Shown here: in pieces, positions 1 through 38,634 of the stretch | Position numbering within the stretch: the stretch's first letter is position 1 | How the letters are laid out: each line of letters begins with the position of its first letter | Virus record (IMG/VR): IMGVR_UViG_3300032111_000006 | Coordinates: 1 to 38,726 of that record | Source: a virus | Taxonomy: Duplodnaviria; Caudoviricetes | Length of the DNA stretch: 38,726 bases | Strand: one strand, 5' to 3' | The notes under the pieces: model-generated | Told to the model about the DNA's origin: nothing | The model's input: only the letters and a program-made list of their open reading frames with translations | Database searches by the model: none | Made by a program: the position numbers and the translations under genes

Positions 1-401
1 GTAAAAATGTAATAAGTGGGGGGAAGTTTTCAGCCTACCTACGAGGAATTGAAACGTTAAGATCAGTCCGCCAAAGGCGCTCACTTAGACCAGTTTTCAG
101 CCTACCTACGAGGAATTGAAACATCAACTCCCGATTAGGTTCGTTACTTCCATATGGCGTTTTCAGCCTACCTACGAGGAATTGAAACGCCGGCCCACCA
201 AAACGACGTTGTTAAGCATTCTTAGTTTTCAGCCTACCTACGAGGAATTGAAACGGGGGTACTGTTATTCCGTGGAACATCGTTCCGGTTGTTTTCAGCC
301 TACCTACGAGGAATTGAAACTCTCTTGGATAGGGGCAAGGGTGGGTGTTGCACCAGGTTTTCAGCCTACCTACGAGGAATTGAAACTGTTTCCATCCCTA
401 T
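1..401 (+). CRISPR. CRISPR array, left part (6 repeats; continues beyond window start)
   Basis: Identical 30-bp repeats GTTTTCAGCCTACCTACGAGGAATTGAAAC at 26, 93, 159, 225, 291 and 357 with 36-37 nt spacers. Orientation inferred from the 3' ATTGAAAC end typical of Cas6-processed type I-B/III repeats. 387-401 is the left piece of an interrupted spacer. Confidence 0.98.
397..401 (+). repeat. Left copy of 5-bp target-site duplication CCTAT
   Basis: CCTAT also at 37119-37123. Removing the element plus one copy restores a 39-nt spacer between two intact repeats. Confidence 0.85.
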
Positions 402-408
402 TATCAAA

Positions 409-426
409 TCTCATGTAACTTGTCCG
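409..426 (+). repeat. Putative transposase-binding site L1
   Basis: TCTCATGTAACTTGTCCG matches the reverse complement of the right-end 18-mer (TCTCACGCAAAATGGCCG) at 13/18 positions, at the same 7-bp offset from the terminus. Confidence 0.7.
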
Positions 427-960
427 GGCGGGGACAGGCGGGAAGACCCGGGAAAACCAGGGATATCGCGGGATTGCGGGGATTTCGCTGAGTGAGATTT
501 TTCCGGCGGCGCGCGGCGCGCCCTGCGGGCGCGGAAACAGTCTCTGAAGGTATGAGGCCGTAAGCGTGAGAGGGGTTTTCGGCGGCGCGGGTCGGCGGCG
601 ATCCTGCCGGCCCTAGGTAACGAAGAGGCATGGAAACAGTAACAGGTTGGAGAGAATCTGTTACTTTATAACACGGTGGCCGTCGTTGTGGTCGGCCACG
701 AGATGAGATCTCGGAAAATATGCGTGTTACCGATCGTTACTAAGGGGGTCTTAAGGTGGATCTGCCGCTAACAGAGGGAGTATTAGAGTAACATATTTCC
801 ATGGAATGGATACCATGACATGGATATAATCCCGCGCAACCTAACCGCGCAACCTTATGAGCGAAGTTGCGCGGATGTATCTTAGGATTATTAAGAATGT
901 GGCGACTTCGTAAAAATAGCGAAGTTGATTACAAATACTATAAAAGAATAACAGATGCTT

Positions 961-995
961 ATAAATAAAAGGACCCCCTAGTCGGGGGCCCTTTG
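961..995 (-). terminator. Probable intrinsic terminator downstream of repressor
   Basis: Minus strand reads AAAGGGCCCCC-GACTA-GGGGGTCCTTTT-ATTTAT: GC stem followed by a U-rich tail. Confidence 0.6.
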
Positions 996-1086
996 CTCAG
1001 AAATGGTTAGTATAATGTCGGTAGCAATGATCTAATAGCTCACTTCCTTTATTAACAAGTATTAACAAGTAGCCTCACTCCCCATA

Positions 1087-1980
1087 TCACCGTGATGGGT
1101 GAGGCTTTTGTTGAGGGGCTTCCATAATGGAAGCCTCTTTTTCCTGGTCTGGTCCAGGTGGTTCCCTCGTTCGGTAGGGGTTATTTGGTGACTCGTGGAC
1201 ACCTTGAGGATAGACCTTGCTGGCCAGAAGATCAACTAACTCGTCGTGATCCTGAATGTTAACCTTACGATCAAGAAGACTAGCTAGGTAAGCAAAAACC
1301 TGCTGTCGCTCAGCGACACTGAGGCGCCGCCCGGCCTGACAGAGTAATTCTAAATCTTCTGCTTCTGTCTTTGATTTTGTTTCAATGATAAGGGTTTTGC
1401 CGTTTCCATAGCTAGCAGTGATATCTGGCCTGCTTTGTCGCTGGCTCAAAATCGAATTAAAAGCTTGCTGAATTGCTTGTTGAGCTAGACGTAGTCCATC
1501 CTCAAAAGTCAACTCCCCTATTACACCGGATGGGGCTCGGGGATCAGTCCCAGTTAGTAACCAGGGTATGGAAACACCAAGCCTGTCAGCGATCATCATA
1601 AGAGTAAAACCATCGGGAACGTATCCATCTACAATTCTACATAACTGATTAACAGGCATTTTTAGGGCCTGTGCGAGGGCATCAGTTGTGACTCCTTTAG
1701 CTTTCATAGTCTCTTTAAGTCGAGTTGAAAACGCAATATCGTGAATATCTGGTGGTTCACCTTCTCCTTTAAGGAGCCACTCTACGGTTGTACCAAGAGC
1801 TTTGGCAATCTTATAAAGAATACTTGCCCGCGGGATGCGCCCCTTAACATAGTTCGAAATGGAATCCTTGTTAAGGCCCAGGCGTTCAGCCAGCTCCAGT
1901 TGAGTAATACCCTCCAGCTCTATCGCCCTTCGCAATCTTTTACCAAATTCGGGGTCAAAATCATCCCTAATGCCTGTCAC
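1087..1980 (-). CDS. Prophage repressor, two tandem XRE/HTH_3 domains plus C-terminal extension
   Basis: FGKRLRRAIELEGITQLELAERLG...GRIP and FSTRLKETMKAKGVTTDALAQAL...VSIPWLLTG. Divergent from the early operon at the left end, like Mu c. GTG start at 1980 chosen from a GGGAGGGG SD (ORF track start is 2016). Confidence 0.85.
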   Translation of the reverse strand: MTGIRDDFDPEFGKRLRRAIELEGITQLELAERLGLNKDSISNYVKGRIPRASILYKIAKALGTTVEWLLKGEGEPPDIHDIAFSTRLKETMKAKGVTTDALAQALKMPVNQLCRIVDGYVPDGFTLMMIADRLGVSIPWLLTGTDPRAPSGVIGELTFEDGLRLAQQAIQQAFNSILSQRQSRPDITASYGNGKTLIIETKSKTEAEDLELLCQAGRRLSVAERQQVFAYLASLLDRKVNIQDHDELVDLLASKVYPQGVHESPNNPYRTREPPGPDQEKEASIMEAPQQKPHPSR

Positions 1981-2046
1981 CCCCTCCCGCCGGCGACCGC
2001 ATACGGCGATCATCATAAATCCCTGCTGACAATCGACATAAGTAAC

Positions 2047-2075
2047 TTGACTGATTATGACAATCGCCGTAAAAT
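2047..2075 (+). promoter_or_regulatory. Putative sigma-A early promoter (Pe-like)
   Basis: TTGACT-N17-TAAAAT in the repressor/cro intergenic region. Confidence 0.6.
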
Positions 2076-2210
2076 GAATTTAGCGGGTGGTTTTTCTACC
2101 TCAAGAGTATGCTACCACATCCGATGACCATCCGAAACTCTAACTGTTCGACAAATGTGACGAGTGGGTGACGCAATCCGACAAGTTGCTTTTCGGAGGA
2201 TGCGCTTTAG

Positions 2211-2411
2211 ATGAACGATCTCGGCAAGTTAATCAAAAAGAACCTTATTGATAAAGGAATGACTCAGGGCGAGCTAGCCAGCAGGATCGGTGTTAGTGAA
2301 AAATACCTTTCCCGCATTGTTCGCGGTGAACGGGGGCCAGGAAAGTACGTTCCGGCCTTGGCGCGGGAATTGAATGTTCCCGAGGAGACGATCCGCGAGC
2401 TGGCGAGCTGA
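2211..2411 (+). CDS. Cro/Ner-like HTH regulator
   Basis: 66-aa XRE HTH (GMTQGELASRIGVSEKYLSRIVRG), GGAGG SD, first early gene. Confidence 0.85.
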   Translation: MNDLGKLIKKNLIDKGMTQGELASRIGVSEKYLSRIVRGERGPGKYVPALARELNVPEETIRELAS

Positions 2412-2441
2412 ACGCCCAAAACTGAGGGGGGGGCGCCACCG

Positions 2442-2900
2442 GTGCAGCAAGGTAGCCTCTTTAAGAACGCAGATATGGGAAAGCGGGAACGGATGATTCC
2501 TGCCGGCACTGTTTTGGCGGAGATGCGGCGGATTAACCGGCGAATGGGCAGCCTACAGTCAGATCTGCGAGCACTCGAACGGCTGATCGTCGAGGAACAC
2601 GAAGCCAGCCGCCCGCGCCGGCATCACAGCTTTGAGCCGGCGGCGCTTGCCTACCTGGTGGAGCTGCACGGGGAGAACCCTGGCGCTAAGAGTCGCCAGT
2701 TGATCAAGCAGTTGATGGATAAGGCTGCCGAGCGGGGCTGGCGGATCGGCTCTCTGAAGACGATTTACCGCGTTTTGAAGGAGCTGCGCGCCGGTGCCCG
2801 CTTAGACATCAGCGACCGAAAGGGGGTGGAACATGGAGGTCAGCAAGCATGCGGCCAAGAGGTGGGTGGAGCGGATCGACCGCACGGCGATGGAAGCTGA
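2442..2900 (+). CDS. Small protein with Mu-transposase I-gamma-like HTH
   Basis: PAALAYLVELHG...AAERGWRIGSLKTIYRVL parallels the transposase segment PELIRFIKREYL...AEELGVPAPSRATVYRII. Start uncertain. Confidence 0.55.
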   Translation: MQQGSLFKNADMGKRERMIPAGTVLAEMRRINRRMGSLQSDLRALERLIVEEHEASRPRRHHSFEPAALAYLVELHGENPGAKSRQLIKQLMDKAAERGWRIGSLKTIYRVLKELRAGARLDISDRKGVEHGGQQACGQEVGGADRPHGDGS

Positions 2901-3390
2901 CGCCGTCGCCGCGGTGGCCGACGCGGTTATCCGGGCAGAACTGCTGTATCGGAAGCCGGAAGAAGACGGACAGATTGTAGAGTTCTATCTATTGGACGAC
3001 GTCGTGCTGGTTGCCAAGAACAATACGGTCTTGACGGTCTTCAGGGCGGAATACGGCTTCAACGCCGAAATCGACCGACAGGTATGCACTCAGTTGAAGC
3101 TCGCGCTTGCCGGTGCGCGGGAAGAGCTACGGCGGGCACGGGAAGAAGCGGAGCAGCATGCCACGGCGGCCCAGGACCAGTTGGATAGGATCAATGCGGA
3201 GCGGCAGCAACTCGAAGCCCGCTTACAGATGCTGCGGGCGCGCGAGAACAAGCTACTGGAGGAGCAGACGGAGCTGGACAGGCGGGTCGACGAGTTGGAG
3301 CACCTGGTTGAATCTTACGCGATGAAGATCGTGTACTCGGTCCTCTATCGCTCTGAATGGACAAGCGGCAAGGTTAAGCAACTTGGGTAA
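2833..3390 (+). CDS. Hypothetical protein, N-terminal SKHAxxRWxER domain plus coiled coil
   Basis: 185-aa ORF with GGGGGTGG SD and heptad-rich C-terminal half. Confidence 0.7.
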   Translation: MEVSKHAAKRWVERIDRTAMEADAVAAVADAVIRAELLYRKPEEDGQIVEFYLLDDVVLVAKNNTVLTVFRAEYGFNAEIDRQVCTQLKLALAGAREELRRAREEAEQHATAAQDQLDRINAERQQLEARLQMLRARENKLLEEQTELDRRVDELEHLVESYAMKIVYSVLYRSEWTSGKVKQLG

Positions 3391-3393
3391 CAA

Positions 3394-3548
3394 GGCTGGG
3401 GCGGCGTGGTGGGCACACGCTGATGATCACAAGGTGATACCAAGCCTGCCTAGCCCTCGCGAGGGTATCGGCAAACCGGTATCCTGGCGAGGGCGATGGA
3501 TGCAGGCGGTGAAAAGGCACCAAGCCGGTTCGAATCCGGCCCCCGACC
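3394..3548 (+). ncRNA. tRNA-like structured RNA with ~100-nt insertion in place of the anticodon arm
   Basis: Acceptor-like GGCTGGGG/CCCCGACC, D-arm GCGTG-GTGGGCA-CACGC, perfect T-arm GCCGG-TTCGAAT-CCGGC (3524-3540), nested hairpins between them. Confidence 0.6.
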
Positions 3549-3570
3549 TACCTCTAACGGAAGGGGGGAA

Positions 3571-5490
3571 GTGAAGATAAGCAGCGAGATTTGGCTGACG
3601 ACGGCTGAAGTAGCTGACGTACTTAAAATGTCGGCATTCTCAGTGCGGAAACAGATCGCAAGGGGTCTGTACGTTATCCGGGAAGAACCCGGTAACGGCG
3701 GGGCTTGCCGGAAGCGGTATCTAATCGCGCTATCTTCTCTCCCCCCTGACATTCAGAGGCAGTTCGCTCAAGACCAAGCCGAGCAGGAAGCCGACCCTCT
3801 CCCCGCCCAGGCGGACGATTCCAGCTCGGCGGCGCAAAGGACAACGTGCACCTTGGCCGAGCTGGAGAGCCGTCTCTCTGACGAGGAGTACCGGCGCGTG
3901 ATGGACGAGGCCTGGCAGAAGGTAGCCATCTGCGAGGAGGTGATTGCTCTACGCGACGACCCAGACCGGGCGGCGAAGCTCGCCACTCTGATGAGCAAAC
4001 ACCATGTCAGCGACCGCACCCTGCGCCGCTGGGTCGCAGCCTACGAACGGGAGGGGATCGATGGGTTGATCCACCAGAAGTACCGCCAAGCGGTCGCCCA
4101 GCGCCGGGTCCATCCGGAGCTTATCCGGTTCATCAAGCGCGAATACCTACAGCCGCACAAACCTACGAAGCAACACGTCTACGAGCGGGCGTGCCGTTAC
4201 GCCGAGGAATTGGGTGTCCCGGCGCCGTCGCGGGCTACGGTGTACCGCATCATCGACGAGGACATCCTCCCGGGCGAGCGAGTGATGGGCCGGGAGGGCA
4301 TAGAGGCTTTCCGGAAGACGATCGAGCCCAAGTGCCGACGCGACCTGAGCGACCTGCAAAAGAACGAGATCTGGACGGGGGACGGCCACACAATTCCAGT
4401 GTTCCTGAACTTTGGCGGTCGTCCCTTAAAAGCCGTGGTCTCGGTTTGGATGGACATGCGCACCGAGGTTGTAACCGGCTTCTGCGTCAGCCAATACGAC
4501 AACAGCCAGAGCATCGCCCTGGCGCTCCGGCATGGCATACTGCCGAAACCCAACTCTCCAATTCAGGGCATCCCCGCCCAGGTCTACACCGATAACGGCA
4601 AGGACTACAGGAGCAAACACCTCGCCGCCGTCTATGCCAGCCTGCGGATCGACGAGCGGTTCTGCACCCCGCACAGTCCCTGGACAAAGCCCATCGAGCG
4701 ATTCTTCTCCACTATGCACTTGCGCTTTAGCAAGTACCTGCCCGGGTACTGTGGCAACAAACCGGAGGACAGGCCCGAAGGGTTCGACGAGAAAGCTCTT
4801 TGCAGGGCGGGCAAACTGCTCACGCCCGAAGAGTTTGCCTCGCGCCTGGCGGAGTGGATTGAGACCGACTACCATAAACGCCGGCATTCCGGGCTCGGCA
4901 TGTCACCGATGGAACTCTACGAGTCATTACCCGCTGCCCGGCCGGAGATGCCGGATGCCCGTGTCCTGGACCTTCTTTTAATGAAGCTCAACGAAGTCAA
5001 GATCTACCCGGACGGCATACGGCGTTTCGGACGGCTGTTCTGGGCCGAGGAGTTGGTGCCATTCATCGGGGATACGGTGACGGTTCGTTACGACCCGTCC
5101 AATGTCGGCGAACTGGTCGTCTTTCGCCGGGGCCGGTACCTGTGCGTGGCGAAGAACGCGGAACTGCTTTCAATGCGCGCCACCGAGGCGCAGGTCAAGG
5201 AGCATATCGCGCGCCAGCGGCGGGCGCGCAAGTTCTTCCGGCAGCGCCTGGCCGAACTAGATGCACCGCTCAGCGAGGTCCAGGATATACCCAAGGTCGT
5301 CGGTGCCAACGACGAGGGCGTCAGGCCGCAGGTGCAGATGCTCACCGGGCTGGAAGCCGCGGCCAGGGCGCGGGCCGCGGCACAGGACGATCTTCCCCCG
5401 CCGCCGGCCGTGGAAAAACGTGACCGCGTCAAGGATTTCCTGGTGGCCCGGGGCGACCGGGTCGCAAAGAGATTAGCCAAGGAGGGATGA
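3571..5490 (+). CDS. MuA-like DDE transposase
   Basis: N-terminal HTH, WTGDGH / YTDNGKDY / KPIERFF DDE triad, Mu-transposase C-terminal VRYDP region. GTG start at 3571 after GGAAGGGGGG. Confidence 0.95.
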   Translation: MKISSEIWLTTAEVADVLKMSAFSVRKQIARGLYVIREEPGNGGACRKRYLIALSSLPPDIQRQFAQDQAEQEADPLPAQADDSSSAAQRTTCTLAELESRLSDEEYRRVMDEAWQKVAICEEVIALRDDPDRAAKLATLMSKHHVSDRTLRRWVAAYEREGIDGLIHQKYRQAVAQRRVHPELIRFIKREYLQPHKPTKQHVYERACRYAEELGVPAPSRATVYRIIDEDILPGERVMGREGIEAFRKTIEPKCRRDLSDLQKNEIWTGDGHTIPVFLNFGGRPLKAVVSVWMDMRTEVVTGFCVSQYDNSQSIALALRHGILPKPNSPIQGIPAQVYTDNGKDYRSKHLAAVYASLRIDERFCTPHSPWTKPIERFFSTMHLRFSKYLPGYCGNKPEDRPEGFDEKALCRAGKLLTPEEFASRLAEWIETDYHKRRHSGLGMSPMELYESLPAARPEMPDARVLDLLLMKLNEVKIYPDGIRRFGRLFWAEELVPFIGDTVTVRYDPSNVGELVVFRRGRYLCVAKNAELLSMRATEAQVKEHIARQRRARKFFRQRLAELDAPLSEVQDIPKVVGANDEGVRPQVQMLTGLEAAARARAAAQDDLPPPPAVEKRDRVKDFLVARGDRVAKRLAKEG

Positions 5491-6470
5491 CAGTGGGACA
5501 GGTTGTGAGGATGGACGAGGCTGACCGCAGGGCGGTCGACGACCTGCGGCTGTATTTCAAGATGATGGTCGAGGACCGGGGGGCCACGGTCAGCGGCATC
5601 GCCCGGGAAATCGGCGTGAGCCACACGTATGTCAGCCGGTTCCTCGCCGGCGAGGACGGGAGCGCCAACCTGCGCGAAAAGCTGACGGAGCTAAAAGCCC
5701 GGTGGGAAGCGGCCACAGCCGAGGACCAGGCCGAGAAGCGCGAGTACCGGCGGGAGATTGACTTTTTCCTGACGAGTGACGCGAAGCAGGTCCTGGCAGT
5801 TTGCGATCTCTGCCAGTCGGAGCGCGAGATCGGCGTCATCGTGGGGCCGGCCGGCACCGGCAAAACGACGGCTCTCCTGAAGTTCTGCGAGAGCAACCCC
5901 GACGCGGTGTATGTGCGCGGTGACGTATCGATGACCGCCAAGGAGCTGCTGATCGAAATTGCCGACCGGCTGGGCATCGATGCCGGGTACGGGTCCCTGC
6001 GGTCGGTGATGAGACGAATTGTTACCCGGTTGAAGGAGCGGCCCGCGCTGATCATCATCGACGAAGCGGATCTCCTTGTGAGCTTCACAGTGCGGAAGCT
6101 CGAACTGCTGCGGACGATCTTCGATGAGTCCAGGTGCGGCCTGGTCCTCTGTGGCATGCCTCGTTTGGCGGGCTATCTGTTGCGTGGCCCGTCGATGAAG
6201 GAGAACCTGGCGCAGATCTACTCCCGGGTGGCGTACACCGCAAAGCTCGGCGGCCTGGCCCGCGCGGAAGCGGAGCAGATCCTCAGCGAGTATGAGCTGA
6301 CCGAGGCCGCGCGGAAGCTGCTGGTAGAGCGGGCGCTCGACTCAAAGCGAGGCGGCTTGCGGCGCTTTACGAAGCTGCTGGGCCGGGCGCTGGATCTGGC
6401 CGGCGAGCAGAAGATCACCCGGGAGATCGTTGAAGACGCCGGCCGGCTCATCCTCTCGTTAGAAGACTAG
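5487..6470 (+). CDS. MuB-like AAA+ transposition ATPase
   Basis: N-terminal HTH, Walker A GPAGTGKT, Walker B IIIDEAD; ATGA overlap with the transposase. Confidence 0.93.
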   Translation: MTVGQVVRMDEADRRAVDDLRLYFKMMVEDRGATVSGIAREIGVSHTYVSRFLAGEDGSANLREKLTELKARWEAATAEDQAEKREYRREIDFFLTSDAKQVLAVCDLCQSEREIGVIVGPAGTGKTTALLKFCESNPDAVYVRGDVSMTAKELLIEIADRLGIDAGYGSLRSVMRRIVTRLKERPALIIIDEADLLVSFTVRKLELLRTIFDESRCGLVLCGMPRLAGYLLRGPSMKENLAQIYSRVAYTAKLGGLARAEAEQILSEYELTEAARKLLVERALDSKRGGLRRFTKLLGRALDLAGEQKITREIVEDAGRLILSLED

Positions 6471-6471
6471 A

Positions 6472-6571
6472 TGCCGAAACCCTCGGCCTGGCCGGCCGGG
6501 GGTCGTGGAAGGGGTGGCGCCCCTTCTACCTGACGACCGCGGAAGCGGGCCGGGCAACCGGCGGCAAGCCA
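6472..6571 (+). ncRNA. Type II hammerhead ribozyme (variant with core insertion)
   Basis: TGCC-GAAA-stem III (10 bp)-GTC (cut after 6504)-stem I (10 bp, loop TGGCG)-CTGACGA-[26-nt insert]-GGCA, then GCCA able to pair with the stem I loop as a pseudoknot. Confidence 0.8.
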
Positions 6572-6601
6572 ATAGCCAATCCACAAGGGGGATGAAAAAC
6601 C

Positions 6602-6916
6602 ATGCGTTGGGGTGACACCGGGCCCCGCTATATTAACCACACGATCTGCCCCGTACCGCTCAAAGACCCAGACCCCACCAACTGCAGTTGTTGGGGCTGT
6701 CGGCACGACTTAGGCACGCGGTGCGGGGCAGGACATCCTTACCCGCACCACTACACCAGCGGCGAGATGTTCTGCTGGGATTTCGAGGATACCCTCATCG
6801 AAGCGCTTATCCAAGACCGGGGCAAGTGGATTGGTTGGGCTATCCTGGCGGTCGCCGGGCTGACCATTACAGCCTACGTTGTGGTGGCGGCCGTACGCTG
6901 GGGGTGGCCGGCGTGA
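6602..6916 (+). CDS. Hypothetical Cys/His-rich protein with C-terminal TM helix
   Basis: 104-aa ORF, AAGGGGG SD, hydrophobic C-terminus. Confidence 0.65.
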   Translation: MRWGDTGPRYINHTICPVPLKDPDPTNCSCWGCRHDLGTRCGAGHPYPHHYTSGEMFCWDFEDTLIEALIQDRGKWIGWAILAVAGLTITAYVVVAAVRWGWPA

Positions 6917-7005
6917 TCGACGGGGGCATGGTTGTCACCCTGATGTTTGTTGCCGTGGCCCTGGCCGCCCTGGCCGCAACCGGACACCGCGGGAGGATGC
7001 CGTGA
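6913..7005 (+). CDS. Small membrane peptide (30 aa)
   Basis: GTGA-coupled to both neighbours; MIDGGMVVTLMFVAVALAALAATGHRGRMP. Confidence 0.45.
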   Translation: MIDGGMVVTLMFVAVALAALAATGHRGRMP

Positions 7006-7478: not shown

Positions 7479-7680
7479 ACTCGAACGAGCAGTGCAGACC
7501 TACTCCGCCTTTAACAGCGCACATGAGGGTTACGCAGTGATACTCGAAGAACTGGATGAGCTTTGGGAAGAGATCCGCAAACGCAACCCGGACCCGCACC
7601 GTATACAGAAAGAAGTCGTCCAGGTTGGGGCCATGGCGATACGGTTCCTGGTTGATGTTTGCAAAGTATCCGCGGAGTAG
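7432..7680 (+). CDS. MazG-like NTP pyrophosphohydrolase family protein
   Basis: EGYAVILEELDELWEEI...KEVVQVGAMA (ExxE...E motif of the all-alpha NTP-PPases). Confidence 0.6.
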   Translation: MLRASHLKATNLVLSELERAVQTYSAFNSAHEGYAVILEELDELWEEIRKRNPDPHRIQKEVVQVGAMAIRFLVDVCKVSAE

Positions 7681-7684
7681 GTGA

Positions 7685-30275: not shown

Positions 30276-30286
30276 GGAGGACGTCG

Positions 30287-30721: not shown

Positions 30722-31860
30722 TCAAGCCCGAAGACATCATCCCGATCAAGACCTTCACTGAACTTATGGATGCTACGAAGACCAGGCTCCGGGATCTGGC
30801 CTTCCGGATCACAAATCTTCGGGCCGGCGGCGTCTTCTACACCCTCTTGGAAATGGCCAACCAGGGCCTTGCGGACTTGTACTCTTTGCTGAAGGACACA
30901 ACGCCGCAACTATACCTGGACACCGCCACAGGGGACTGGCTGGACTTGCGCGCGGCCGAGTTCGAGGTCTACCGCAAGCTGGCCCAGAAGACCCAGGGCA
31001 ACGTCGTTTTCGGGCGCGCCGCCGCCGGCGGGAATGTCGTCATCCCCGCAGGCACCGTGGTCTCGACGGCTGTGGATCGATATGGGGAAAAGCTGCAGTA
31101 CATCGTGACGGCACAGGCGGTTCTTGAAGGCCTTGAAGTCGCCGTGCCAGTAGAAGCCGAGTTCGCCGGCGCCCAGTATAACGTTGGTGCCGGACAGATC
31201 AACCAACTGGTGACCTTTATTCCCGGCGTGGATTATGTGACCAATGCCGCGGATTGGATTACTCGCGAGGGCACCGACGACGAGACCGACGAATCGCTGC
31301 GCTTCCGCGCGAAGGGCAAGTGGAGCCAATTGTCCGCCGGCGGCGGCCGGGATGCGTACATCGCTTGGGCGCAGGAAGTGACTGGCGTGGTCGTCGTGCA
31401 AATCGACGACCAGCATCCGCGCGGACAGGGCACGGTCGACGTGATCATCACTGGGGCGGCGGGACTGCCCACCCAGGACCTGATTGACCAGGTGCAGGCC
31501 CACATCAACGCGCGCCGGCCGCTCTGCGCTGATGTCCTCGTTCTCGGGCCGACGCCCGTCGAGGTGGACTTTGACGTTACGCTGCATGTCCACCCCGATT
31601 ACGGCGACCTGGACGAGATCCGGGCCGAGGCCGAGGAGATCATCGACATCATGTTCAGGTACGGGGACACCGAGCACGCGGACATTGCCAGAGTATCGCC
31701 TGAGTTTGGCGTTGTGCGGGCGCAGGTGATCGCGAACCTTATGAAGATCGAACACGTTGTCAACGTCACCCTGACGGCGCCGGCGGCCGACGTGCCGGTC
31801 ACCGCCCGGGAACTTGCCGTAAAGGGTAGTGTTACCGTAACGGCACAGAGGGTGAGTTAA
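30718..31860 (+). CDS. Baseplate J / Mu gp47-like protein
   Basis: DTATGDWLDL, GTDDETDESLR, RGQGTVDV motifs. Confidence 0.92.
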   Translation: MIKPEDIIPIKTFTELMDATKTRLRDLAFRITNLRAGGVFYTLLEMANQGLADLYSLLKDTTPQLYLDTATGDWLDLRAAEFEVYRKLAQKTQGNVVFGRAAAGGNVVIPAGTVVSTAVDRYGEKLQYIVTAQAVLEGLEVAVPVEAEFAGAQYNVGAGQINQLVTFIPGVDYVTNAADWITREGTDDETDESLRFRAKGKWSQLSAGGGRDAYIAWAQEVTGVVVVQIDDQHPRGQGTVDVIITGAAGLPTQDLIDQVQAHINARRPLCADVLVLGPTPVEVDFDVTLHVHPDYGDLDEIRAEAEEIIDIMFRYGDTEHADIARVSPEFGVVRAQVIANLMKIEHVVNVTLTAPAADVPVTARELAVKGSVTVTAQRVS

Positions 31861-32486
31861 TGACGTTCGCGGAGTATTTCTGGTACCTGTTGCATCGCGT
31901 TTTCAAGCGGGCGCCCAAGAACAGCGACGCGGAAAAGCTGGCCAAGGCCCTGGGGCCGAACTATGACCTGGCCCAGGAAACCATTTTCCGCCTGCGGGAG
32001 CAGTCCTTCCTGGCCACGGCCACCGGGAAGGCCCTGGACCAACTAGGCCGGGACCGGGGACTTCCGAGGTACCGGGAAGAGACCGACGAAGAGTACCAAC
32101 TCCGGTTATTGGCCGCGTACAGCATCCACAGCCAGATCGGGACGGCCGCAGCTATGTTGGATACCTTCCAGCGTCTGGGCTTTACAGATGCCGAGATTCA
32201 GGAGCTAAGGGCCGAGGACCCGAACAGGTGGGCAGAGTTCCGTGTGAACTTACCCCTACCCGAGGCCAGCTTCACAGAGGCGCAGCGCACCAATCTACTT
32301 AACACAATCAGCAGGATGAAGCCGGCACATACAAAGCTGGCCGGTCTCAATATCGAAGCTCCGGCGCGAGACATTGGTGCCGATCCGGATCTCATCACCT
32401 GGGGGGAGCAGGTAACGACAAACCTCTTTGCCTGTCCCCTGCCGGCTGAAAGCCTGTATCCTGCAGAGGATCTATACCCATGTTAA
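31860..32486 (+). CDS. Baseplate wedge protein (P2 gpI / Mu gp48-like)
   Basis: TATGKALDQLGRDRGL, MKPAHT. Confidence 0.8.
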   Translation: MTFAEYFWYLLHRVFKRAPKNSDAEKLAKALGPNYDLAQETIFRLREQSFLATATGKALDQLGRDRGLPRYREETDEEYQLRLLAAYSIHSQIGTAAAMLDTFQRLGFTDAEIQELRAEDPNRWAEFRVNLPLPEASFTEAQRTNLLNTISRMKPAHTKLAGLNIEAPARDIGADPDLITWGEQVTTNLFACPLPAESLYPAEDLYPC

Positions 32487-32989
32487 GGAGGCCGGCCATG
32501 CGAGACTTTTTGCGGCAGTTGCTTAATCGAAGATCCAGGCGCCCAGGAGAATGTCTCTTATGGCTCCCCGGCCGCTTCCGAGCATATCATTGCGGCCGGG
32601 AGTGGGTCTTCGAAAACACCATCACCGACGCCGGCCTGCAGTGGTTTCTCGACCTCTGGCGCGGTGTCGAGACCCCGGGCTTCAAGTACATTGCCTTGGG
32701 GACCTCGGACGTGGCCACGCAGTACAGCCAAACGCAGCTCGGCGGTGAGCAGATCCGCAAGGTCATCGAAAGCTTCAACCCCGCCCTGCCGGCGCTGGAA
32801 TCAATCGTGACCTTTTTGGACACCGAGGCGAACTTTCTTATTAGAGAGATTGGCCTGTTCGCCGGGGCCGCAGCGACCGCAGATCCAAACACCGGCATCT
32901 TGGTGGCCAGGGCGGTGGTCAACATCAACAAGACGGCCGCCGGCAGCCTCAAGATTGTTCGTGAAGACCGTCTAGGGAGGGCTGTATAG
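32480..32989 (+). CDS. Tail fibre attachment/collar-like protein
   Basis: NTITDAG...YIALGT...IREIGLF...LVAR. Confidence 0.7.
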   Translation: MLRRPAMRDFLRQLLNRRSRRPGECLLWLPGRFRAYHCGREWVFENTITDAGLQWFLDLWRGVETPGFKYIALGTSDVATQYSQTQLGGEQIRKVIESFNPALPALESIVTFLDTEANFLIREIGLFAGAAATADPNTGILVARAVVNINKTAAGSLKIVREDRLGRAV

Positions 32990-33411
32990 TGCCTTACGAA
33001 AAGATACCGTTTGTCAATCAGGGACCGCCCGGTATCTCGGCCGAACGGCTGAACCATATACAAACCCAGTACGACGAGGCAAAGGCGGACTATGAGGGCG
33101 GCGCATGGACTCCCCCGGGGAATACCGTGAAGAACGCCGGCGGCGTCCCGGAGCTGCTGGCCGGCACCCTGGCCGAGAGACCGCAACCCGGCACCATGGG
33201 CCGATGTTACTTTGCCACAGACACAGGGGAGATCTACAGGGATACGGGATCGGCTTGGGAATTGGCGGCCGCCAGCCAGGCAGGGTACCTTGCACACTTG
33301 GCCGAAACCATGCCACACCGATATCAAGATATCGGTACTGGCACAACGTACCAGTACGGCTTCAAACAGCAAGATAACCATCTGGTGTTTATGTATCAGG
33401 AGGTGGTCTAA
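32989..33411 (+). CDS. Tail fibre-associated protein
   Basis: ISAERLNHI, GTLAERP...YFATDTGEIYRD; GGGAGG SD. Confidence 0.6.
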   Translation: MPYEKIPFVNQGPPGISAERLNHIQTQYDEAKADYEGGAWTPPGNTVKNAGGVPELLAGTLAERPQPGTMGRCYFATDTGEIYRDTGSAWELAAASQAGYLAHLAETMPHRYQDIGTGTTYQYGFKQQDNHLVFMYQEVV

Positions 33412-33737
33412 TGCCGGAAATTCTGCTTCCTAACCGAGATGATGTGCTTAATAGCGCCACAACTAGTGCCCCGGCGGTCGGTACAAAGACGATAGCGGCA
33501 ACGGCGGCAGAGGTGTTTGCCGGGGCGTCGCCTAAGTCCAATCGCCGCAGGTTAATCATCAAGAACGAAGATCCTGTTCTGCGACTGCGCGTCGGTCCGG
33601 CCTCGGTGACACAGCAAACCGGTTTTCCGGTTGAGCCTGGCGCTACCGTTGAATTTGTATTTGATCCGACAGTTCCGGTGACTATATACGGCATCTCGGA
33701 GGGTGCAAGTCTGAATGTGGCGGTGATTGAAGAATGA
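33411..33737 (+). CDS. Hypothetical virion protein
   Basis: 108-aa coupled ORF, AGGAGG SD. Confidence 0.6.
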   Translation: MPEILLPNRDDVLNSATTSAPAVGTKTIAATAAEVFAGASPKSNRRRLIIKNEDPVLRLRVGPASVTQQTGFPVEPGATVEFVFDPTVPVTIYGISEGASLNVAVIEE

Positions 33738-33946
33738 CATACGTTCTTACAGTGAATGGCGATGGCACTACGACCATCGAGATCAGTTTTATTGACGAGG
33801 GCGTCGACATCCAAGGGCGCACGAACGTCAAGGGTGGCGAGGCCGAGGCACTGAGTTATCTGCCAGTCTTTGAGGCGGACCTACGGCGCAATTACGCTGA
33901 TCTGTTTCCCCTGCCCCCGATGCCGGAAGGAGGTATGTTTGAGTGA
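33734..33946 (+). CDS. Hypothetical protein
   Basis: 70-aa ORF coupled to both neighbours. Confidence 0.6.
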   Translation: MTYVLTVNGDGTTTIEISFIDEGVDIQGRTNVKGGEAEALSYLPVFEADLRRNYADLFPLPPMPEGGMFE

Positions 33947-35172
33947 GGTATATTAGCGGCCCATATACGCAGGGGCAACTGCTGAAGGAAATCCACGAAA
34001 TCGAGATTGCGCTGGCCAACCGATTCTTGCGTAACGGTGTCATTACCGACGCTGCTGAGCAGCGTTCCTGGCGCGAGCGCGTTGAGGAGGCCAGCTTTGG
34101 TCGTAACACGGTGCTATACGACGACCAAGGCAACCCCTCGGTGATGGTGGCGGTGCCGCTTATGACTGAGGCCGATCTACTTACCGGCGGGCGGAATATG
34201 CCCCACCCGGCCTTTATCGTCAACGGCATTACAAAACCACTGATCTACGTCTCAAAGTACCAAAACATAACCACCGGCTCCGGGACGACATTACGAGCCC
34301 TGAGCCTCAAACATCAGGACCCGGCGAATTCTATAACCTTTGACAACGCCCTTTTGGCGTGCAAGCAAAAGGGCACCGGATGGCACCTTCTGACTAACGC
34401 CGAGTGGGCCGCCATTGCGCTTTGGTGCAAAAAACAGGGCTTCTGGCCGCGCGGCAACAATGGCTTCGGCAAAGATTATGCCGTCGCCAGTGAAGCCGGG
34501 GTCCCGAGTTATTATTACGATGACGCTGGCACTAAGCGAATTGGGCGAGTCTTAACTGGTTCCGGCCCGTTACCCTGGTCGCATGACGGAAGCCCGTTCG
34601 GTATCTTTGACCTGAACGGCAATGTCTGGGAGTGGGTCGGCGGGCTGCGGTTAAATGTAGGAGAAATCCAAGTGCTCGCCGACAATAACGCTGCCGACAA
34701 CACTAAAGACCAGAGCTCCGCAAGCGCGGAGTGGAAAGCAATTCTCCAGGATGGTAGTCTCGTTGCGCCGGGTACCGCCAATACGCTCAAGATTGATTCG
34801 CCAGTCGCTGGGGATGGCGTGGGTGCTAACGACCTGGGAGCGCCGTTCATCAACACAACTATTACCAACAGCATGAACCCCGGCAATACCGCTTCGAACG
34901 AATACCTGGATTACGGCAGTTGTCCACTTGAGACCTTGACAGCTGCTGGCGGAGTCACCGTTCCAAACATTCTCAAATTGCTCGGTGTTGCTCCTGTTGA
35001 CAGCAACCACGGCGGGGACCGCTTTTGGGCGCGCAATTACGGCGAGCGTCTCCCGCTCCGGGGTGGGTGCTGGCTCCGCGGCTCCGCTGCGGGCGTTTTC
35101 GCTCTGGACCTGATCGGCCCTCGTTCGTACGTGCTCAGCAACGTCGGCTTCCGCGCGGCTTTTATTCCGTAA
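33943..35172 (+). CDS. DGR target protein, C-type-lectin/FGE-fold (Mtd-like receptor-binding protein)
   Basis: WHLLTNAEWAAI, GIFDLNGNVWEW, C-terminal RGG.W...GVF...R...GFRAA encoded by the VR. Confidence 0.92.
   Translation: MRYISGPYTQGQLLKEIHEIEIALANRFLRNGVITDAAEQRSWRERVEEASFGRNTVLYDDQGNPSVMVAVPLMTEADLLTGGRNMPHPAFIVNGITKPLIYVSKYQNITTGSGTTLRALSLKHQDPANSITFDNALLACKQKGTGWHLLTNAEWAAIALWCKKQGFWPRGNNGFGKDYAVASEAGVPSYYYDDAGTKRIGRVLTGSGPLPWSHDGSPFGIFDLNGNVWEWVGGLRLNVGEIQVLADNNAADNTKDQSSASAEWKAILQDGSLVAPGTANTLKIDSPVAGDGVGANDLGAPFINTTITNSMNPGNTASNEYLDYGSCPLETLTAAGGVTVPNILKLLGVAPVDSNHGGDRFWARNYGERLPLRGGCWLRGSAAGVFALDLIGPRSYVLSNVGFRAAFIP
35044..35161 (+). repeat. DGR variable repeat (VR)
   Basis: 118-nt ungapped match to 35590-35707 with 12 mismatches. 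Confidence 0.95.
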
Positions 35173-35198
35173 TCTGGCACCTGTAGAACTGTAATCTG

Positions 35199-35224
35199 TT
35201 TTGGCGGGCGGTAGCCCGCCAAAA
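35199..35224 (+). promoter_or_regulatory. DGR target-recognition hairpin/cruciform
   Basis: TTTTGGCGGGC-GGTA-GCCCGCCAAAA: 11-bp stem with a GRNA-type loop just downstream of the VR/IMH. Confidence 0.85.
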
Positions 35225-35235
35225 GGAAGGCGTCG

Positions 35236-35571
35236 ATGGAAGAACTAAAAATACTGCAAAAGACCTATGACATGATGCAGTATGGCTACGTCTGCCTGCG
35301 CCAATTCCCAAAGTCTGAGAAGTTTGCTTTGGCGGGCGAGATAAAGTTGGCGATGGCCAGAATGTTGCGGCTGATCATTCAGGCCAATAAGCGGTACTTC
35401 AAAAAGAGCACGCTCCAGGACATCGATGTAGAGCTGGCAACGGTCAAGACTTATGTCCGATTGGCAAGGGATCTGGGCTTTCTGCCTTTTAACAAATACG
35501 AGCACTGGTCTAAGATGCTCGATGAAATCGGCAGGATGCTCGGAGGCTGGATAAAGAGCGTAAAGCAATGA
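35236..35571 (+). CDS. avd: DGR accessory variability determinant
   Basis: 111-aa four-helix-bundle pattern FPKSEKFALA...EIGRMLGGW between VR and TR. Confidence 0.92.
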   Translation: MEELKILQKTYDMMQYGYVCLRQFPKSEKFALAGEIKLAMARMLRLIIQANKRYFKKSTLQDIDVELATVKTYVRLARDLGFLPFNKYEHWSKMLDEIGRMLGGWIKSVKQ

Positions 35572-35589
35572 TTTACGGGGAGGAAGCCA

Positions 35590-35707
35590 GAGCGTCTCCC
35601 GCTCCGGGGTGGGGTCTGGAACAGCGGCTCCGCTGCGGGCGTTTTCGCTCTGAACCTGAACGGCCCTCGTTCGTACGTGCTCGGCGGCATCGGCGTCCGC
35701 GCGGCTT
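35590..35707 (+). repeat. DGR template repeat (TR)
   Basis: Copy of the VR between avd and RT; retains AAC codons at 3 positions. Confidence 0.93.
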
Positions 35708-35886
35708 CATCCTGCAGCCAGAAGTGGTTGGCTCACGGGCCAATCTCCAGCGCACAGGGATAAAGGGGCTTTCTTCCCTGCCGCGTTCCGCATTGGACCG
35801 GCAAAAAACTGAACTGCTGGGAAGGCAGTTAGTAGCCCGCAAGGGCGAAGGGTGCCACGCCCAGTCTAATTAAACGGAGGCAGCAC

Positions 35887-36966
35887 TTGAAGCGGCATAA
35901 GGGCTTATATCCAAAGATCTACGACTTCGAGAACCTATTCCTGGCCTATCTTGAGGCCAGGAAGTGCAAGCGTTACCGTTCTGAGGTTTTGAGCTTTACT
36001 GCTAATCTAGAAGAGAACCTGATCAACCTGCAAAATGAGCTGATTTGGCGCACATACCGGGTTGGGCGGTACCGGGAGTTTTTCGTGTACGAACCCAAAA
36101 AGCGGCTTATTATGGCCCTGCCGTTTCGGGACCGGGTGGTCCAGTGGGCCATTTATCGAGCGCTTAACCCGCTCCTTGACAGGCGCTATATCCAGGACTC
36201 CTACGCTTGCCGGGTAGGATACGGCACTCACCGGGCCGTGGACCGGCTGCAATATTGGCTCCGGGGTCTGGAGCGGAAGCATGCCAGGGTATACGTGCTG
36301 AAGCTCGACATATCCAAGTACTTCTACCGGGTGGATCATGATGTTCTGATGGCTATTCTGCGCCGGCTAATTGATGACCAGGATCTGCTGTGGCTCTTGG
36401 AGACTATTATCCGGTGCGAACATACCAAGTTCGGCTTGGCCCTGGGAGACCAGGGCTTCACCGGCGAGCGGGTGGACGGCGTGGGAATGCCCATCGGAAA
36501 CCTGACAAGCCAGATGTTTGCAAATTTGTACCTCAATGAACTGGACCAATTCGTAAAACACGAGCTGCGGGTCAGGCACTATATGCGGTATATGGATGAC
36601 GCCCTGGTGCTTCACTGGGAAAAACCCTACCTATGGTGGGTAAAGCAGGAAATCCAGCGGTTCCTCGACGAGCACCTGCGCTTAGTCCTGAATAGCAAAA
36701 CCACTATCAGGACCGTAGACCAGGGCATTGAGTGGGTTGGTTACTGGGTCTGGAGCACCCACAGGAAGTTACGAAAGTCCACGGTCAAGAAAATGAAGCG
36801 GCGCCTGAAATACCTCCAGAGGGCCTATGCCCGAGGCGAGGTTGATTGGGAGGAGGTAAACGCCAGCGTACAGAGTTACCTTGGCCTGTTGAAGCACTGC
36901 AACAGCTTTTGTTTGAGGGAAAAGTTCTTCGGTGATCTGGTGTTTTGCCGAAGGGTTACACAGTAG
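35887..36966 (+). CDS. DGR reverse transcriptase
   Basis: FRDRVVQ, LKLDISKYF, GMPIGNLTSQMFAN (DGR-type SQ), YMRYMDD; GGAGG SD with TTG start. Confidence 0.96.
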   Translation: MKRHKGLYPKIYDFENLFLAYLEARKCKRYRSEVLSFTANLEENLINLQNELIWRTYRVGRYREFFVYEPKKRLIMALPFRDRVVQWAIYRALNPLLDRRYIQDSYACRVGYGTHRAVDRLQYWLRGLERKHARVYVLKLDISKYFYRVDHDVLMAILRRLIDDQDLLWLLETIIRCEHTKFGLALGDQGFTGERVDGVGMPIGNLTSQMFANLYLNELDQFVKHELRVRHYMRYMDDALVLHWEKPYLWWVKQEIQRFLDEHLRLVLNSKTTIRTVDQGIEWVGYWVWSTHRKLRKSTVKKMKRRLKYLQRAYARGEVDWEEVNASVQSYLGLLKHCNSFCLREKFFGDLVFCRRVTQ

Positions 36967-37048
36967 GACGGTAGTGCGCAAGCTTTAGGGTGGGCCAGGA
37001 CGGCGACCGGCAGGAAATAGAAGCATCAATAACGGTAAGTTATGGAAT

Positions 37049-37111
37049 TCTCGCGTAAAATTACGCTGGCGCGGCCATTTTGCGTGAGACTTCCGGCCAT
37101 TTTGCGTGAGA
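37049..37111. repeat. Right-end transposase-binding sites R1-R3
   Basis: CGGCCATTTTGCGTGAGA at 37072-37089 and 37094-37111 (22-bp period) plus an inverted degenerate copy TCTCGCGTAAAATTACGC at 37049-37066, the same layout as Mu attR. Confidence 0.8.
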
Positions 37112-37118
37112 AGCTATA

Positions 37119-37123
37119 CCTAT
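37119..37123 (+). repeat. Right copy of target-site duplication CCTAT
   Basis: Matches 397-401. Confidence 0.85.
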
Positions 37124-38634
37124 CTAACAGACGAAATGAGGATGTGTGTTTTCAGCCTACCTACGAGGAATTGAAACACCGTTTTTGGCAGTGCATTCTA
37201 AAATGGAGGTGAAGGTTTTCAGCCTACCTACGAGGAATTGAAACTCTGCAACGGGATGCCAACCCTCATGATTGAGCTTCAACGTTTTCAGCCTACCTAC
37301 GAGGAATTGAAACGCGGGCAGCTGGCTGGCGTAGAACCGATGGTTCTTGGTTTTCAGCCTACCTACGAGGAATTGAAACCCGTCTGACCGTAGGGGTTGT
37401 CGCCGCTGTCGAGTTTTCAGCCTACGAGCCGTCGGGGTTTTTCTTCATCGGGCGGTCCACGTTGTCGCCGCTGTCGAGTTTTCAGCCTACCTACGAGGAA
37501 TTGAAACTTTTCTCAATGTCTTCTTTGGTTAGGCGGCCTTTTTGTTTTCAGCCTACCTACGAGGAATTGAAACCGCGGAAGCGGTAAAAATGTAATAAGT
37601 GGGGGGAAGTTTTCAGCCTACCTACGAGGAATTGAAACCCTTTGACGCCGACGCCTGCACGAACCCCAATGTCGGTTTTCAGCCTACCTACGAGGAATTG
37701 AAACGCTTCTTCCTCGACGACCTCGAAGGCCGGGTTCCTGTTTTCAGCCTACCTACGAGGAATTGAAACGCGGGCAGCTGGCTGGCGTAGAACCGATGGT
37801 TCTTGGTTTTCAGCCTACCTACGAGGAATTGAAACTGGGCTTGCGGAGTCGACCACATCCGCAAGACCCGGGTTTTCAGCCTACCTACGAGGAATTGAAA
37901 CGCAAACGCGAATTTTACAAGCTTGCCGATTTCATCAGGTTTTCAGCCTACCTACGAGGAATTGAAACAAATGTTGAAAGCCTGCAACATTAAAACCAGA
38001 ACCGGGTTTTCAGCCTACCTACGAGGAATTGAAACACCAAAGAAGAGATCGAACAAGTTCTGACCAACTTGTGTTTTCAGCCTACCTACGAGGAATTGAA
38101 ACGGGTCTGGCGGTATCCAACCCCAACCGTTCCACGCAAGTTTTCAGCCTACCTACGAGGAATTGAAACCCTTTCTGCCTGGCCTGCGGCACAACCCGAA
38201 CCTGGTTTTCAGCCTACCTACGAGGAATTGAAACTGCAGCCAACGATAAGGCCAAGCAGGAATACCACCATGTTTTCAGCCTACCTACGAGGAATTGAAA
38301 CCGGTGCAGGTTCGGGTTGTGCCGCAGGCCCGGAAGAAGTTTTCAGCCTACCTACGAGGAATTGAAACAAGGTTAGCATTGTTACCCTCTCCTTTGTATT
38401 CGGGTTTTCAGCCTACCTACGAGGAATTGAAACGTGATCGGATTGATAACGTGCGTCATACCTCGTCACAGTTTTCAGCCTACCTACGAGGAATTGAAAC
38501 AACCGAGGCATCCAGGCTACCCGAATGCCGTTCACCGGTTTTCAGCCTACCTACGAGGAATTGAAACCAGCCAAGCGTTCGCCAGCTAGCCAATATGCCG
38601 TCGGGTTTTCAGCCTACCTACGAGGAATTGAAAC
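37119..38634 (+). CRISPR. CRISPR array, right part (22 full repeats plus one irregular unit)
   Basis: Same 30-bp repeat from 37148 to 38634, spacers 33-39 nt, irregular unit at 37396-37490. Confidence 0.98.

What the first reader, a model, noticed from the sequence alone, without database searches (positions are those of the whole stretch)
387..37147. Intact Mu-like prophage transposed into the middle of a CRISPR spacer, splitting the array
Seen: repeat (357-386), TGTTTCCATC-CCTAT, 36,717-bp prophage, CCTAT-CTAACAGACGAAATGAGGATGTGT, repeat (37148). Excision rebuilds a 39-nt spacer, the same length as spacer 37245-37283. Established: Mu-type transposition makes 5-bp duplications, and arrays are transcribed from one leader. 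Inference: with the leader to the left (ATTGAAAC orientation), one spacer is destroyed and about 22 distal units are cut off from their promoter, so lysogeny itself would disable part of the host immune memory. Integrase-driven prophage insertion into repeats is known. A DDE-transposed phage inside a spacer could be chance or could reflect array targeting, for example via nicked integration intermediates or bound Cas proteins.
Basis: partly seen in the sequence, partly recalled or inferred. Interest (0 to 1): 0.85.

Follow-up and report, generated by a model that had tools for sequence, protein, structure and literature searches.

The report
Jumping phage splits a CRISPR spacer
A complete 36.7-kb Mu-type "jumping" prophage sits inside one spacer of a bacterial CRISPR array, where it likely silences the immune memories behind it; its relatives mostly land elsewhere, so this is probably a chance hit that was kept, although one of 17 mapped relatives also split a CRISPR leader.

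Summary
A Mu-like myoviral prophage with a diversity-generating retroelement occupies 402-37118, between two copies of CCTAT inside one spacer. Contigs of two runs of one sample bridge both junctions without differences. Its ends read TA...TA, not TG...CA as in all 17 relatives mapped at both ends. The leader lies to the left by homology but outside the contig; silencing of the distal spacers is likely but untested, and their number is uncertain (15 to 21+; an IS3 element cuts the array's right end). The family does not aim at arrays as a rule: 16 of 17 relatives sit elsewhere. The 17th (G086) splits the conserved palindrome of a CRISPR leader, 138 bp from a 55-repeat array; chance gives one such hit 3-9% of the time, more if dispensable DNA is favoured. 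The phage's own subclade could not be mapped. No window spacer matches the phage. Precedents: an integrase phage in repeats, Tn7-like elements in spacers. I found no paper on a whole transposable phage in a spacer; this scan has noted TA-ended Mu-like prophages and small elements in arrays on other DNA, but not this. Verdict: real, unusual, probably accidental, with a testable hint of bias.

The parts
1..25 (+). Partial spacer, identical to 37584-37608; the contig starts here, leader not included
   Evidence: this spacer has about 3 times the depth of others in X1 and X2
26..386 (+). Left (leader-proximal, inferred) array segment: 6 repeats, 5 whole spacers
   Evidence: orientation from G106 and G086
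387..401 (+). Left half of the split spacer, with the first copy of the 5-bp duplication at 397-401
402..37118 (+). Mu-like myoviral prophage, 36,717 bp, 92% covered by open frames, ends TA...TA
402..427 (+). Left end, imperfect inverted repeat of the right end (17 of 26)
968..1102 (.). Two G+C-rich hairpins (968-994, about 1070-1102) after the repressor; predicted terminators that would stop leader-driven transcription
   Evidence: function inferred
1087..2016 (-). Repressor (c-like)
2211..2411 (+). Ner/Cro-like regulator
3571..5490 (+). MuA-type DDE transposase; D271, D341, E376 (DD35E spacing), invariant in 6 aligned proteins
5487..6470 (+). MuB-type AAA+ target-capture ATPase
8741..9727 (+). 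Tyrosine recombinase (accessory; not the enzyme of this insertion)
   Evidence: present in some relatives, not found in others with the same ends
9747..11918 (+). Gam (9747-10235), GemA (11276-11692), Mor (11667-11918)
12326..33946 (+). Lysis, head (terminase, Portal_Mu, protease, capsid) and contractile tail genes
33943..36966 (+). Diversity-generating retroelement: target gene 33943-35172 with variable repeat 35044-35161, avd 35236-35571, template repeat 35590-35707, RT-14 RNA 35705-35864, reverse transcriptase 35887-36966
37072..37118 (-). Right end with two 18-nt direct repeats (37072-37089, 37094-37111), predicted transposase sites
   Evidence: function inferred from Mu
37119..37147 (+). 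Second copy of the duplication (37119-37123) and right half of the split spacer
37148..38634 (+). Right (distal) array segment: 22 exact repeats, 21 intervals; one interval (37380-37477) holds a truncated repeat; 37314-37349 = 37770-37805
38635..38673 (+). Further spacer-length stretch (37 nt plus the first two repeat letters, or 39 nt)
38674..38726 (+). Left end of an IS3-family element; second mobile insertion at this array
   Evidence: 100% match to an IS end in G106 and G107; OrfA and rve OrfB, 3-bp duplication in L463

Best explanation
A Mu-type temperate phage lies inside one spacer of a CRISPR array between two copies of a 5-base target, likely placed there by ordinary low-specificity MuA/MuB transposition and likely kept because arrays are dispensable, and it would cut the downstream spacers off from the leader. 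Steps: (1) MuA cut the phage ends (here TA) and joined them to a 5-bp staggered target 10 bases after a repeat; repair duplicated CCTAT (product shown, chemistry from Mu). (2) The spacer was split and no longer yields its guide (shown at DNA level). (3) Leader-driven transcription would end at the hairpins near the phage's left end, so 15 to 21+ older spacers lose the leader (inferred); any distal crRNA would have to come from phage read-through or cryptic promoters (untested). (4) Mu prophages rarely excise, so the split is close to permanent in this lineage (from PMC3562280). (5) The same array has also taken an IS3 insertion and internal duplications, which fits a locus under weak selection (inferred).
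For: MuA with DD35E, MuB, Gam, GemA, Mor, Portal_Mu. End motif shared with 17 relatives, each with a 5-bp duplication. The target fits the family's bias: AT at one end in 12 of 17 relatives and here. 16 of 17 relatives mapped at both ends have no array in the fetched flanks and no leader motif within 1.5 kb (G958 has under 300 bp of flank); for 5 examined gene by gene the sites are in unrelated frames or between genes. 7 left-only ends and the G005 copies show none either. Arrays of this repeat family make up 0 to 0.5% of 5 hosts counted. No window spacer matches the phage (best 24 of 37); 0 of 212 G086 spacers match its prophage. IS3 end at 38674. Mu-like integration has low sequence preference (PMC11406979, passages).
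Against: 1 of 17 relatives (G086:C1 1768362-1799935) splits a leader palindrome that is intact in 5 other leaders of that genome; expected 3-9% of the time at 0.2-0.5% array content. All 17 relatives are distant (24-39% transposase identity); the window's own clade (P0002-P0006, 52-70%) has no mapped site. Short-read assemblies break at arrays (G106's contig ends after two repeats), which hides array insertions. One X1 contig looks like a same-family spacer matching the phage's variable repeat, and X2 contigs at host-like depth carry matches to two spacers, which leaves room for selection.
Confidence: 0.57

Rival explanations
1. Random insertion followed by selection: lysogens survived preferentially because the insertion silenced distal spacers that target the phage or another resident element.
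For: Distal spacer 38036-38072 matches, with 1 difference, an 8.8-kb X2 contig of depth 44.3, beside 43.8 for the prophage. An X1 contig of depth 47.7 joins about 34 letters of the phage's variable repeat (to 35162) to a repeat, as a spacer would (read from the joint table and bin depth, letters not seen). Precedents: PhiAP1.1 lysogens are selected this way (bioRxiv 2020.10.09.333658, section 6); Mu-like DMS3 deletes CRISPR regions under self-targeting (PMC11406979, passages).
Against: No spacer of the window matches this phage; none of 212 in G086 matches its own. Proximal spacer 255-290, not cut off, has a perfect match on a 1.5-kb X2 contig of depth 46.6. The phage-matching joint is absent from X2. 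Equal depth does not place contigs in one cell.
Confidence: 0.18
2. Mild target bias: MuA/MuB of this family prefer the bent, protein-bound or untranslated DNA of CRISPR leaders and arrays, so CRISPR loci are hit above their share.
For: Two hits in the same repeat family; the G086 insertion falls between the two inverted repeats of the leader motif. Inverted repeats in bacterial leaders flank a bend that recruits the Cas integrase in type I-F (PMC13748974, passage). Assembly breaks at arrays bias the count downward.
Against: Only G086 counts, as the window was picked for this trait; 1 of 17 (about 1 of 26 with one-sided sites) is not significant once dispensable, AT-rich DNA is allowed for (24-33% at a tripled share). 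G086's three nearest relatives in the tree are outside CRISPR loci. Mu avoids transcribed DNA (PMC7350765, passages). None of 14 viral loci with this repeat family showed MuA or MuB.
Confidence: 0.18
3. Dedicated array targeting by a selector protein, as in the cyanobacterial Tn7-like family.
For: Insertion in a spacer with repeats left whole, as in PMC11837452 (18 of 22 elements in arrays). The window's subclade is unmapped and has unusual ends; several early genes have no family.
Against: No TniQ/TnsD hit among the 22 proteins scanned with Pfam or 53 with PHROGs; no fixed distance (10 bases after a repeat here, 138 before one in G086); 16 of 17 elsewhere.
Confidence: 0.03
4. Misassembly joining a free phage genome to array fragments, or integration by the phage's tyrosine recombinase.
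For: The contig starts at a duplicated spacer and spacer order is ambiguous; X1 and X2 are one sample and may be the source of the window; a tyrosine recombinase is encoded.
Against: Both junctions lie in unique spacer sequence and are bridged by 40-56 flanking letters in two runs; an assembler would not create the duplication plus a spacer-length remainder; the overlap is exactly 5 bases; relatives without the recombinase hit have the same ends.
Confidence: 0.04

Closest known systems
Phage Mu and Mu-like transposable phages (proposed family Saltoviridae), including the Firmicute Mu-like prophages with DGRs (Toussaint 2013, seen only as a reference title in PMC4406082)
   Same: Gene order repressor-ner-A-B-gam-gemA-mor-lysis-head-tail, DDE transposase, 5-bp duplication, about 37 kb, DGR at the right end
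   Different: Ends TA...TA instead of TG...CA; extra tyrosine recombinase; target is a CRISPR spacer
Streptococcus pyogenes phage PhiAP1.1 (bioRxiv 10.1101/2020.10.09.333658; abstract and section 6 read)
   Same: A whole prophage inside a CRISPR array; downstream spacers lose their crRNAs there, the effect predicted here
   Different: PhiAP1.1 recombines into repeats site-specifically, excises and carries AcrIIA23; this phage transposed into a spacer, leaves repeats whole, and its family shows no fixed site
Array-targeting Tn7-like transposons of Cyanobacteria (PMC11837452; passages read)
   Same: DDE transposition into a spacer, repeats intact
   Different: Minimal transposons with TnsD, fixed position, 18 of 22 in arrays; here a phage without TnsD and 1 of 17 relatives in a CRISPR locus
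Leptospira TA-TA transposable prophages, WETA1 group (PMC8705779; passages read)
   Same: TA at both ends of a complete transposable prophage
   Different: B3/Tn552-type with 6-bp duplication in spirochaetes; here 5-bp, in a Firmicute group whose mapped members all end TG...CA
Mu-like DMS3 in Pseudomonas aeruginosa PA14 (PMC11406979) and IS insertion into CRISPR-cas loci (PMC10359306); passages read
   Same: Transposition that disables CRISPR immunity
   Different: DMS3 causes deletions under proven self-targeting; the IS cases hit cas genes; neither passage set shows a whole phage inside a spacer

Membership tests
Mu-like transposable phage (Saltoviridae as summarised in PMC7761591) | DDE transposase (MuA) | tested here: met
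   Mu-transpos_C, HTH_Tnp_Mu_2, rve; D271, D341, E376
Mu-like transposable phage (Saltoviridae as summarised in PMC7761591) | MuB-type ATPase after A | tested here: met
   phrog_296, AAA_22
Mu-like transposable phage (Saltoviridae as summarised in PMC7761591) | GemA, Mor and Mu portal | tested here: met
   PF06252, PF08765, PF06074 above cut-off
Mu-like transposable phage (Saltoviridae as summarised in PMC7761591) | 5-bp target duplication | tested here: met
Mu-like transposable phage (Saltoviridae as summarised in PMC7761591) | TG...CA ends | tested here: not met
   TA...TA; 17 of 17 relatives TG...CA. TA-ended transposable prophages are described (PMC8705779), so this makes it a variant, not an outsider
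Mu-like transposable phage (Saltoviridae as summarised in PMC7761591) | Replicative transposition and virions with host DNA at the ends | not testable with these tools
   No second insertion junction was visible in contigs of X1, X2; contigs drop rare variants
Diversity-generating retroelement | RT, Avd, template and variable repeat | tested here: met
Diversity-generating retroelement | Template-variable differences confined to template adenines | tested here: inconclusive
   6 of 12 differences are at template A; the template may have drifted
Type I-B CRISPR array | Repeat associated with a cas8b-cas7-cas5-cas3-cas4-cas1-cas2 operon and a 5' leader | tested here: inconclusive
   Met in G106 for the identical repeat; no cas gene or leader in the window. 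Rfam CRISPR-DR2 scores the repeat on the minus strand, against this orientation
Array-targeting Tn7-like transposons | TnsD/TniQ selector | tested here: not met
   No such hit
Array-targeting Tn7-like transposons | Most family members in arrays at a fixed position | tested here: not met
   1 of 17, and in a leader
Repeat-integrating prophages (PhiAP1.1 type) | Recombination into a repeat, att core shared with the repeat | tested here: not met
   Repeats 357-386 and 37148-37177 are whole; overlap is 5 bases of spacer
Repeat-integrating prophages (PhiAP1.1 type) | Anti-CRISPR gene | not tested
   Several small early genes have no family; no dedicated Acr search was run

The most novel reading that the evidence does not exclude
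Firmicute Mu-like phages hit CRISPR loci well above chance, at the bent leader or within arrays, and the TA-ended subclade of this phage may do so routinely. Transposition itself would then be a near-irreversible anti-CRISPR route: insertion in a leader would block spacer acquisition (G086), insertion in a spacer would silence older memory (this window).
Probability: 0.2. Interest if true: 0.8.

Novelty: new variant of a known kind. Interest (0 to 1): 0.5.

Why it matters
Mobile elements in CRISPR arrays are known from an integrase phage, Tn7-like transposons and small elements. A whole transposable phage adds a route that needs no att site and is hard to reverse. Even as an accident it is a natural split array in which crRNA output left and right of a 37-kb block can be compared. 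The second case is the more useful one: G086 is a closed genome with one leader split by a prophage and five intact leaders with the same palindrome, a built-in control for what that motif does in spacer acquisition. If a survey confirms an excess, it would give transposable phages an anti-CRISPR strategy with no Acr protein. The TA ends, in a group that otherwise keeps TG...CA, are a natural test of why that dinucleotide is conserved.

Tried and rejected
Intact spacer or its target: the right half (37124-37147) gave 0 exact hits in metagenome and viral contigs; not in G106, G107, G101. An empty site was not among the listed loose ends of X1/X2, but lists were cut and contigs drop rare forms. 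No RNA holder listed. Ends at TG...CA (387 and 37129): no duplication, remainder too short for a spacer; rejected (by eye; one search finds no such pair). Window spacers against 462 held loci: best 17 letters. Right-end motif in viral contigs: 0 hits. RT, MuB and baseplate-J scans of viral contigs (80, 80 and 6 loci): no array in any locus and no end of a close relative. 205 loci held, nearly all around transposase relatives: 4 with periodic k-mers, not followed up; many lack flanks or are not phages, so they were not counted. End mapping was tried on 21 elements and succeeded for 17 (G030:C5, G368:C1, G960 and G005:C20 failed; G803:C24 is borderline). Elements with one end, short contigs or no clear end (G001, G083, G116, G118:C43, G366, G373, G520, G933, G953:C18, G956, G957, G959, G1133) were left out of the count; 8 genomes were not scored. 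No close cultured phage (terminase best 25%). Depth of phage against spacers differs between runs (about 2:1 in X1, about 1:1 in X2) and was not used. The careful tree did not finish; one search is the quick tree.
Full report
Observation. The window is the whole record held. It has 28 exact copies of a 30-nt repeat: 6 at 26-386 and 22 at 37148-38634. Between copies 6 and 7 lie 10 bases, CCTAT (397-401), 36,717 bases (402-37118), CCTAT (37119-37123) and 24 bases. The halves with one CCTAT give 39 nt, the top of the 35-39 range. Such a 5-bp repeat alone would arise 0.16 times by chance, but it is the only one within 40 nt of the two repeats, and the ends it defines are an inverted repeat at 17 of 26 bases. 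It ranks first of 5,283 candidate pairs. The ends begin TA on both strands, not TG.

Assembly. Of 14 runs listed, 2 hold half or more of the words; both are sample S1 and may be the source of the window, so they are not independent biology. Their contigs cross both junctions with 0 differences and 40-56 flanking letters. Only contigs were available, so a rare empty site cannot be excluded. Array order is less safe. The contig starts in a spacer that recurs at 37574-37608, and 37314-37349 recurs at 37770-37805. By my reading a second path through these duplicates uses the same pieces and leaves 15 rather than 21 intervals behind the phage. The last 53 bases match an IS end in G106 and G107 at 100%; in L463 that element has OrfA, an rve OrfB and a 3-bp duplication, which I read as IS3 family. 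The array may go on beyond it.

The phage. PHROGs and Pfam give repressor, Ner, MuA, MuB, Gam, GemA, Mor, lysis, Mu portal, head and contractile tail genes; the transposase has D271, D341, E376; open frames cover 92%. The right end holds a DGR. Mu-like prophages with DGRs in Firmicutes are known (reference title in PMC4406082). A tyrosine recombinase is present, but the junctions share only 5 bases and relatives without that hit have the same ends.

Host and orientation. The exact repeat occurs in 2 of 162 genomes of the class of G002, the same two that carry the IS end; the host is probably near G106 and G107 (inference; G002 is the record titled Pelotomaculum propionicicum). In G106 the repeat follows cas8b-cas7-cas5-cas3-cas4-cas1-cas2 and a leader in this orientation, and 6 of 7 arrays of G086 decay at the 3' end in this orientation. 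Rfam's CRISPR-DR2 model scores the opposite strand; I weigh the cas2-leader evidence higher. So the leader is to the left, at least 6 spacers upstream, outside the contig.

Effect on the array. Two hairpins at 968-994 and about 1070-1102 and the oncoming repressor would stop leader transcripts (consensus scans, 5 found against 2.5 in shuffles). None was found between the RT stop and the right end, so phage transcripts could reach the distal array. With PhiAP1.1, downstream spacers lose their crRNAs (bioRxiv 2020.10.09.333658, section 6). Silencing is therefore likely, not shown. One distal spacer keeps a copy upstream (1-25).

Does the family aim at arrays? I searched genomes with an alignment of the six closest transposases, fetched flanks and mapped ends by 5-bp duplication plus end motif. 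17 of 21 elements tried were mapped at both ends. All 17 end TG...CA; 10 of 17 targets begin with AT and 12 have AT at one end, as CCTAT does. Sixteen show no array or leader motif. The seventeenth, G086:C1 1768362-1799935, lies 138 bp from the first of 55 repeats; taking it out restores the leader palindrome found in 5 other leaders of that genome. Seven left-only ends and the G005 copies show no array. Repeat counts in 5 of the hosts (213, 76, 0, 196, 2) give 0-0.5% of the genome. One hit in 17-18 is expected 3-9% of the time at 0.2-0.5%, and 24% at 1.5%. Against over-reading: the window itself cannot be counted; the two hits share no fixed distance; G086 groups with three phages outside CRISPR loci. 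Against dismissing it: all mapped relatives are 24-39% identical, the window's own clade (52-70%) is unmapped, and short-read contigs break at arrays. Of 14 viral loci with this repeat family none showed MuA or MuB.

Selection? No window spacer matches the phage (best 24 of 37) and none of 212 G086 spacers matches its prophage. Three hints from contig tables: an X1 contig (depth 47.7) joins about 34 letters ending at 35162 to a repeat, as a spacer against the phage's variable repeat would, and is absent in X2; distal spacer 38036-38072 matches an 8.8-kb X2 contig at host-like depth with 1 difference; proximal spacer 255-290 matches a 1.5-kb X2 contig perfectly. I did not see these contigs' letters, and depth does not place them in one cell. 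If they are resident, the proximal match suggests that interference is off, which fits a decaying array.

Literature. Searches: Mu-like, prophage, CRISPR array, inserted, spacer; the phrase 'inserted in the CRISPR' had 0 occurrences in the 15 listed; I saw listings and abstract starts only, except where passages are named. None listed a whole transposable phage in a spacer or leader. Passages read: PMC4406082, PMC11406979, PMC7761591, PMC11837452, PMC3562280, PMC3145075, PMC8705779, PMC13748974, PMC10359306, PMC7350765; abstract and section 6 of the bioRxiv paper; PMC8146710 gave 0 hits for the terms tried. The library lacks most subscription papers and I opened no supplements; insertion-site tables there could hold such cases. 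TA-ended transposable prophages are described in Leptospira (28 of 74 complete ones, PMC8705779). Earlier notes of this scan report TA-ended Mu-like prophages, an integrase prophage in a repeat, a MITE in a spacer and a gene-less Mu-type remnant in a last repeat; apart from the Leptospira paper I did not check them.

Verdict. A real insertion, a new variant of a known kind. Most likely ordinary Mu-type transposition into dispensable DNA (0.57); selection after insertion (0.18) or a mild bias (0.18) remain; dedicated targeting (0.03) and artefact or integrase (0.04) are unlikely.

Noticed in passing
G086:C1 1768362-1799935 (L212, L441): 31.6-kb Mu-like prophage inside a CRISPR leader, between the two inverted repeats of a motif that is intact in 5 other leaders of the genome.
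   Followed up: yes
window 402-403 and 37117-37118: Both ends read TA where 17 relatives read TG; the rest of the right end matches G075's for 13 further bases. Lineage trait or private change is unresolved.
   Followed up: partly
17 mapped relatives: Target bias: 10 of 17 duplications begin with AT on the phage's strand, 12 have AT at one end (rough binomial 4e-7 and 2e-6; phages treated as independent).
   Followed up: partly
window 38674-38726: IS3-family end, also starting TA; with the upstream spacer it forms an 11-of-12 sigma-70-like promoter at 38650-38679.
   Followed up: partly
window 3394-3546: tRNA-like structured non-coding stretch just before the transposase (fold z -5.7); its two ends recur in G106:C3 and in a high-depth contig of X1/X2; no tRNA or Rfam call.
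   Followed up: partly
window 35044-35161 and 35590-35707: Only 6 of 12 template-variable differences are at template adenines; three are template G against variable A, as if the template itself had been mutated.
   Followed up: no
window about 35129-35163: An X1 contig appears to be a same-family spacer matching the end of the DGR variable repeat.
   Followed up: partly
window 38170-38204 and 38302-38338: Two spacers share 24 bases on opposite strands and differ beyond, as if taken from related elements.
   Followed up: no
window 37380-37477: Odd unit: a truncated repeat lacking one CTAC, with a 17-base duplication of the preceding spacer end; contig joints disagree on the order here.
   Followed up: no
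window 10226-18361: An X1 contig of depth 21 matches in short collinear pieces, probably a related phage in the sample.
   Followed up: no
G005 (L021-L023, L258-L261): Three identical copies of one Mu-like DGR prophage in one genome; the left flank on C20 pairs by duplication with the right flank on C38, so these scaffolds look crossed.
   Followed up: partly
L460: Viral record with three repeats of this family about 3 kb before a DGR cassette; whether it is a Mu-like phage was not determined.
   Followed up: no
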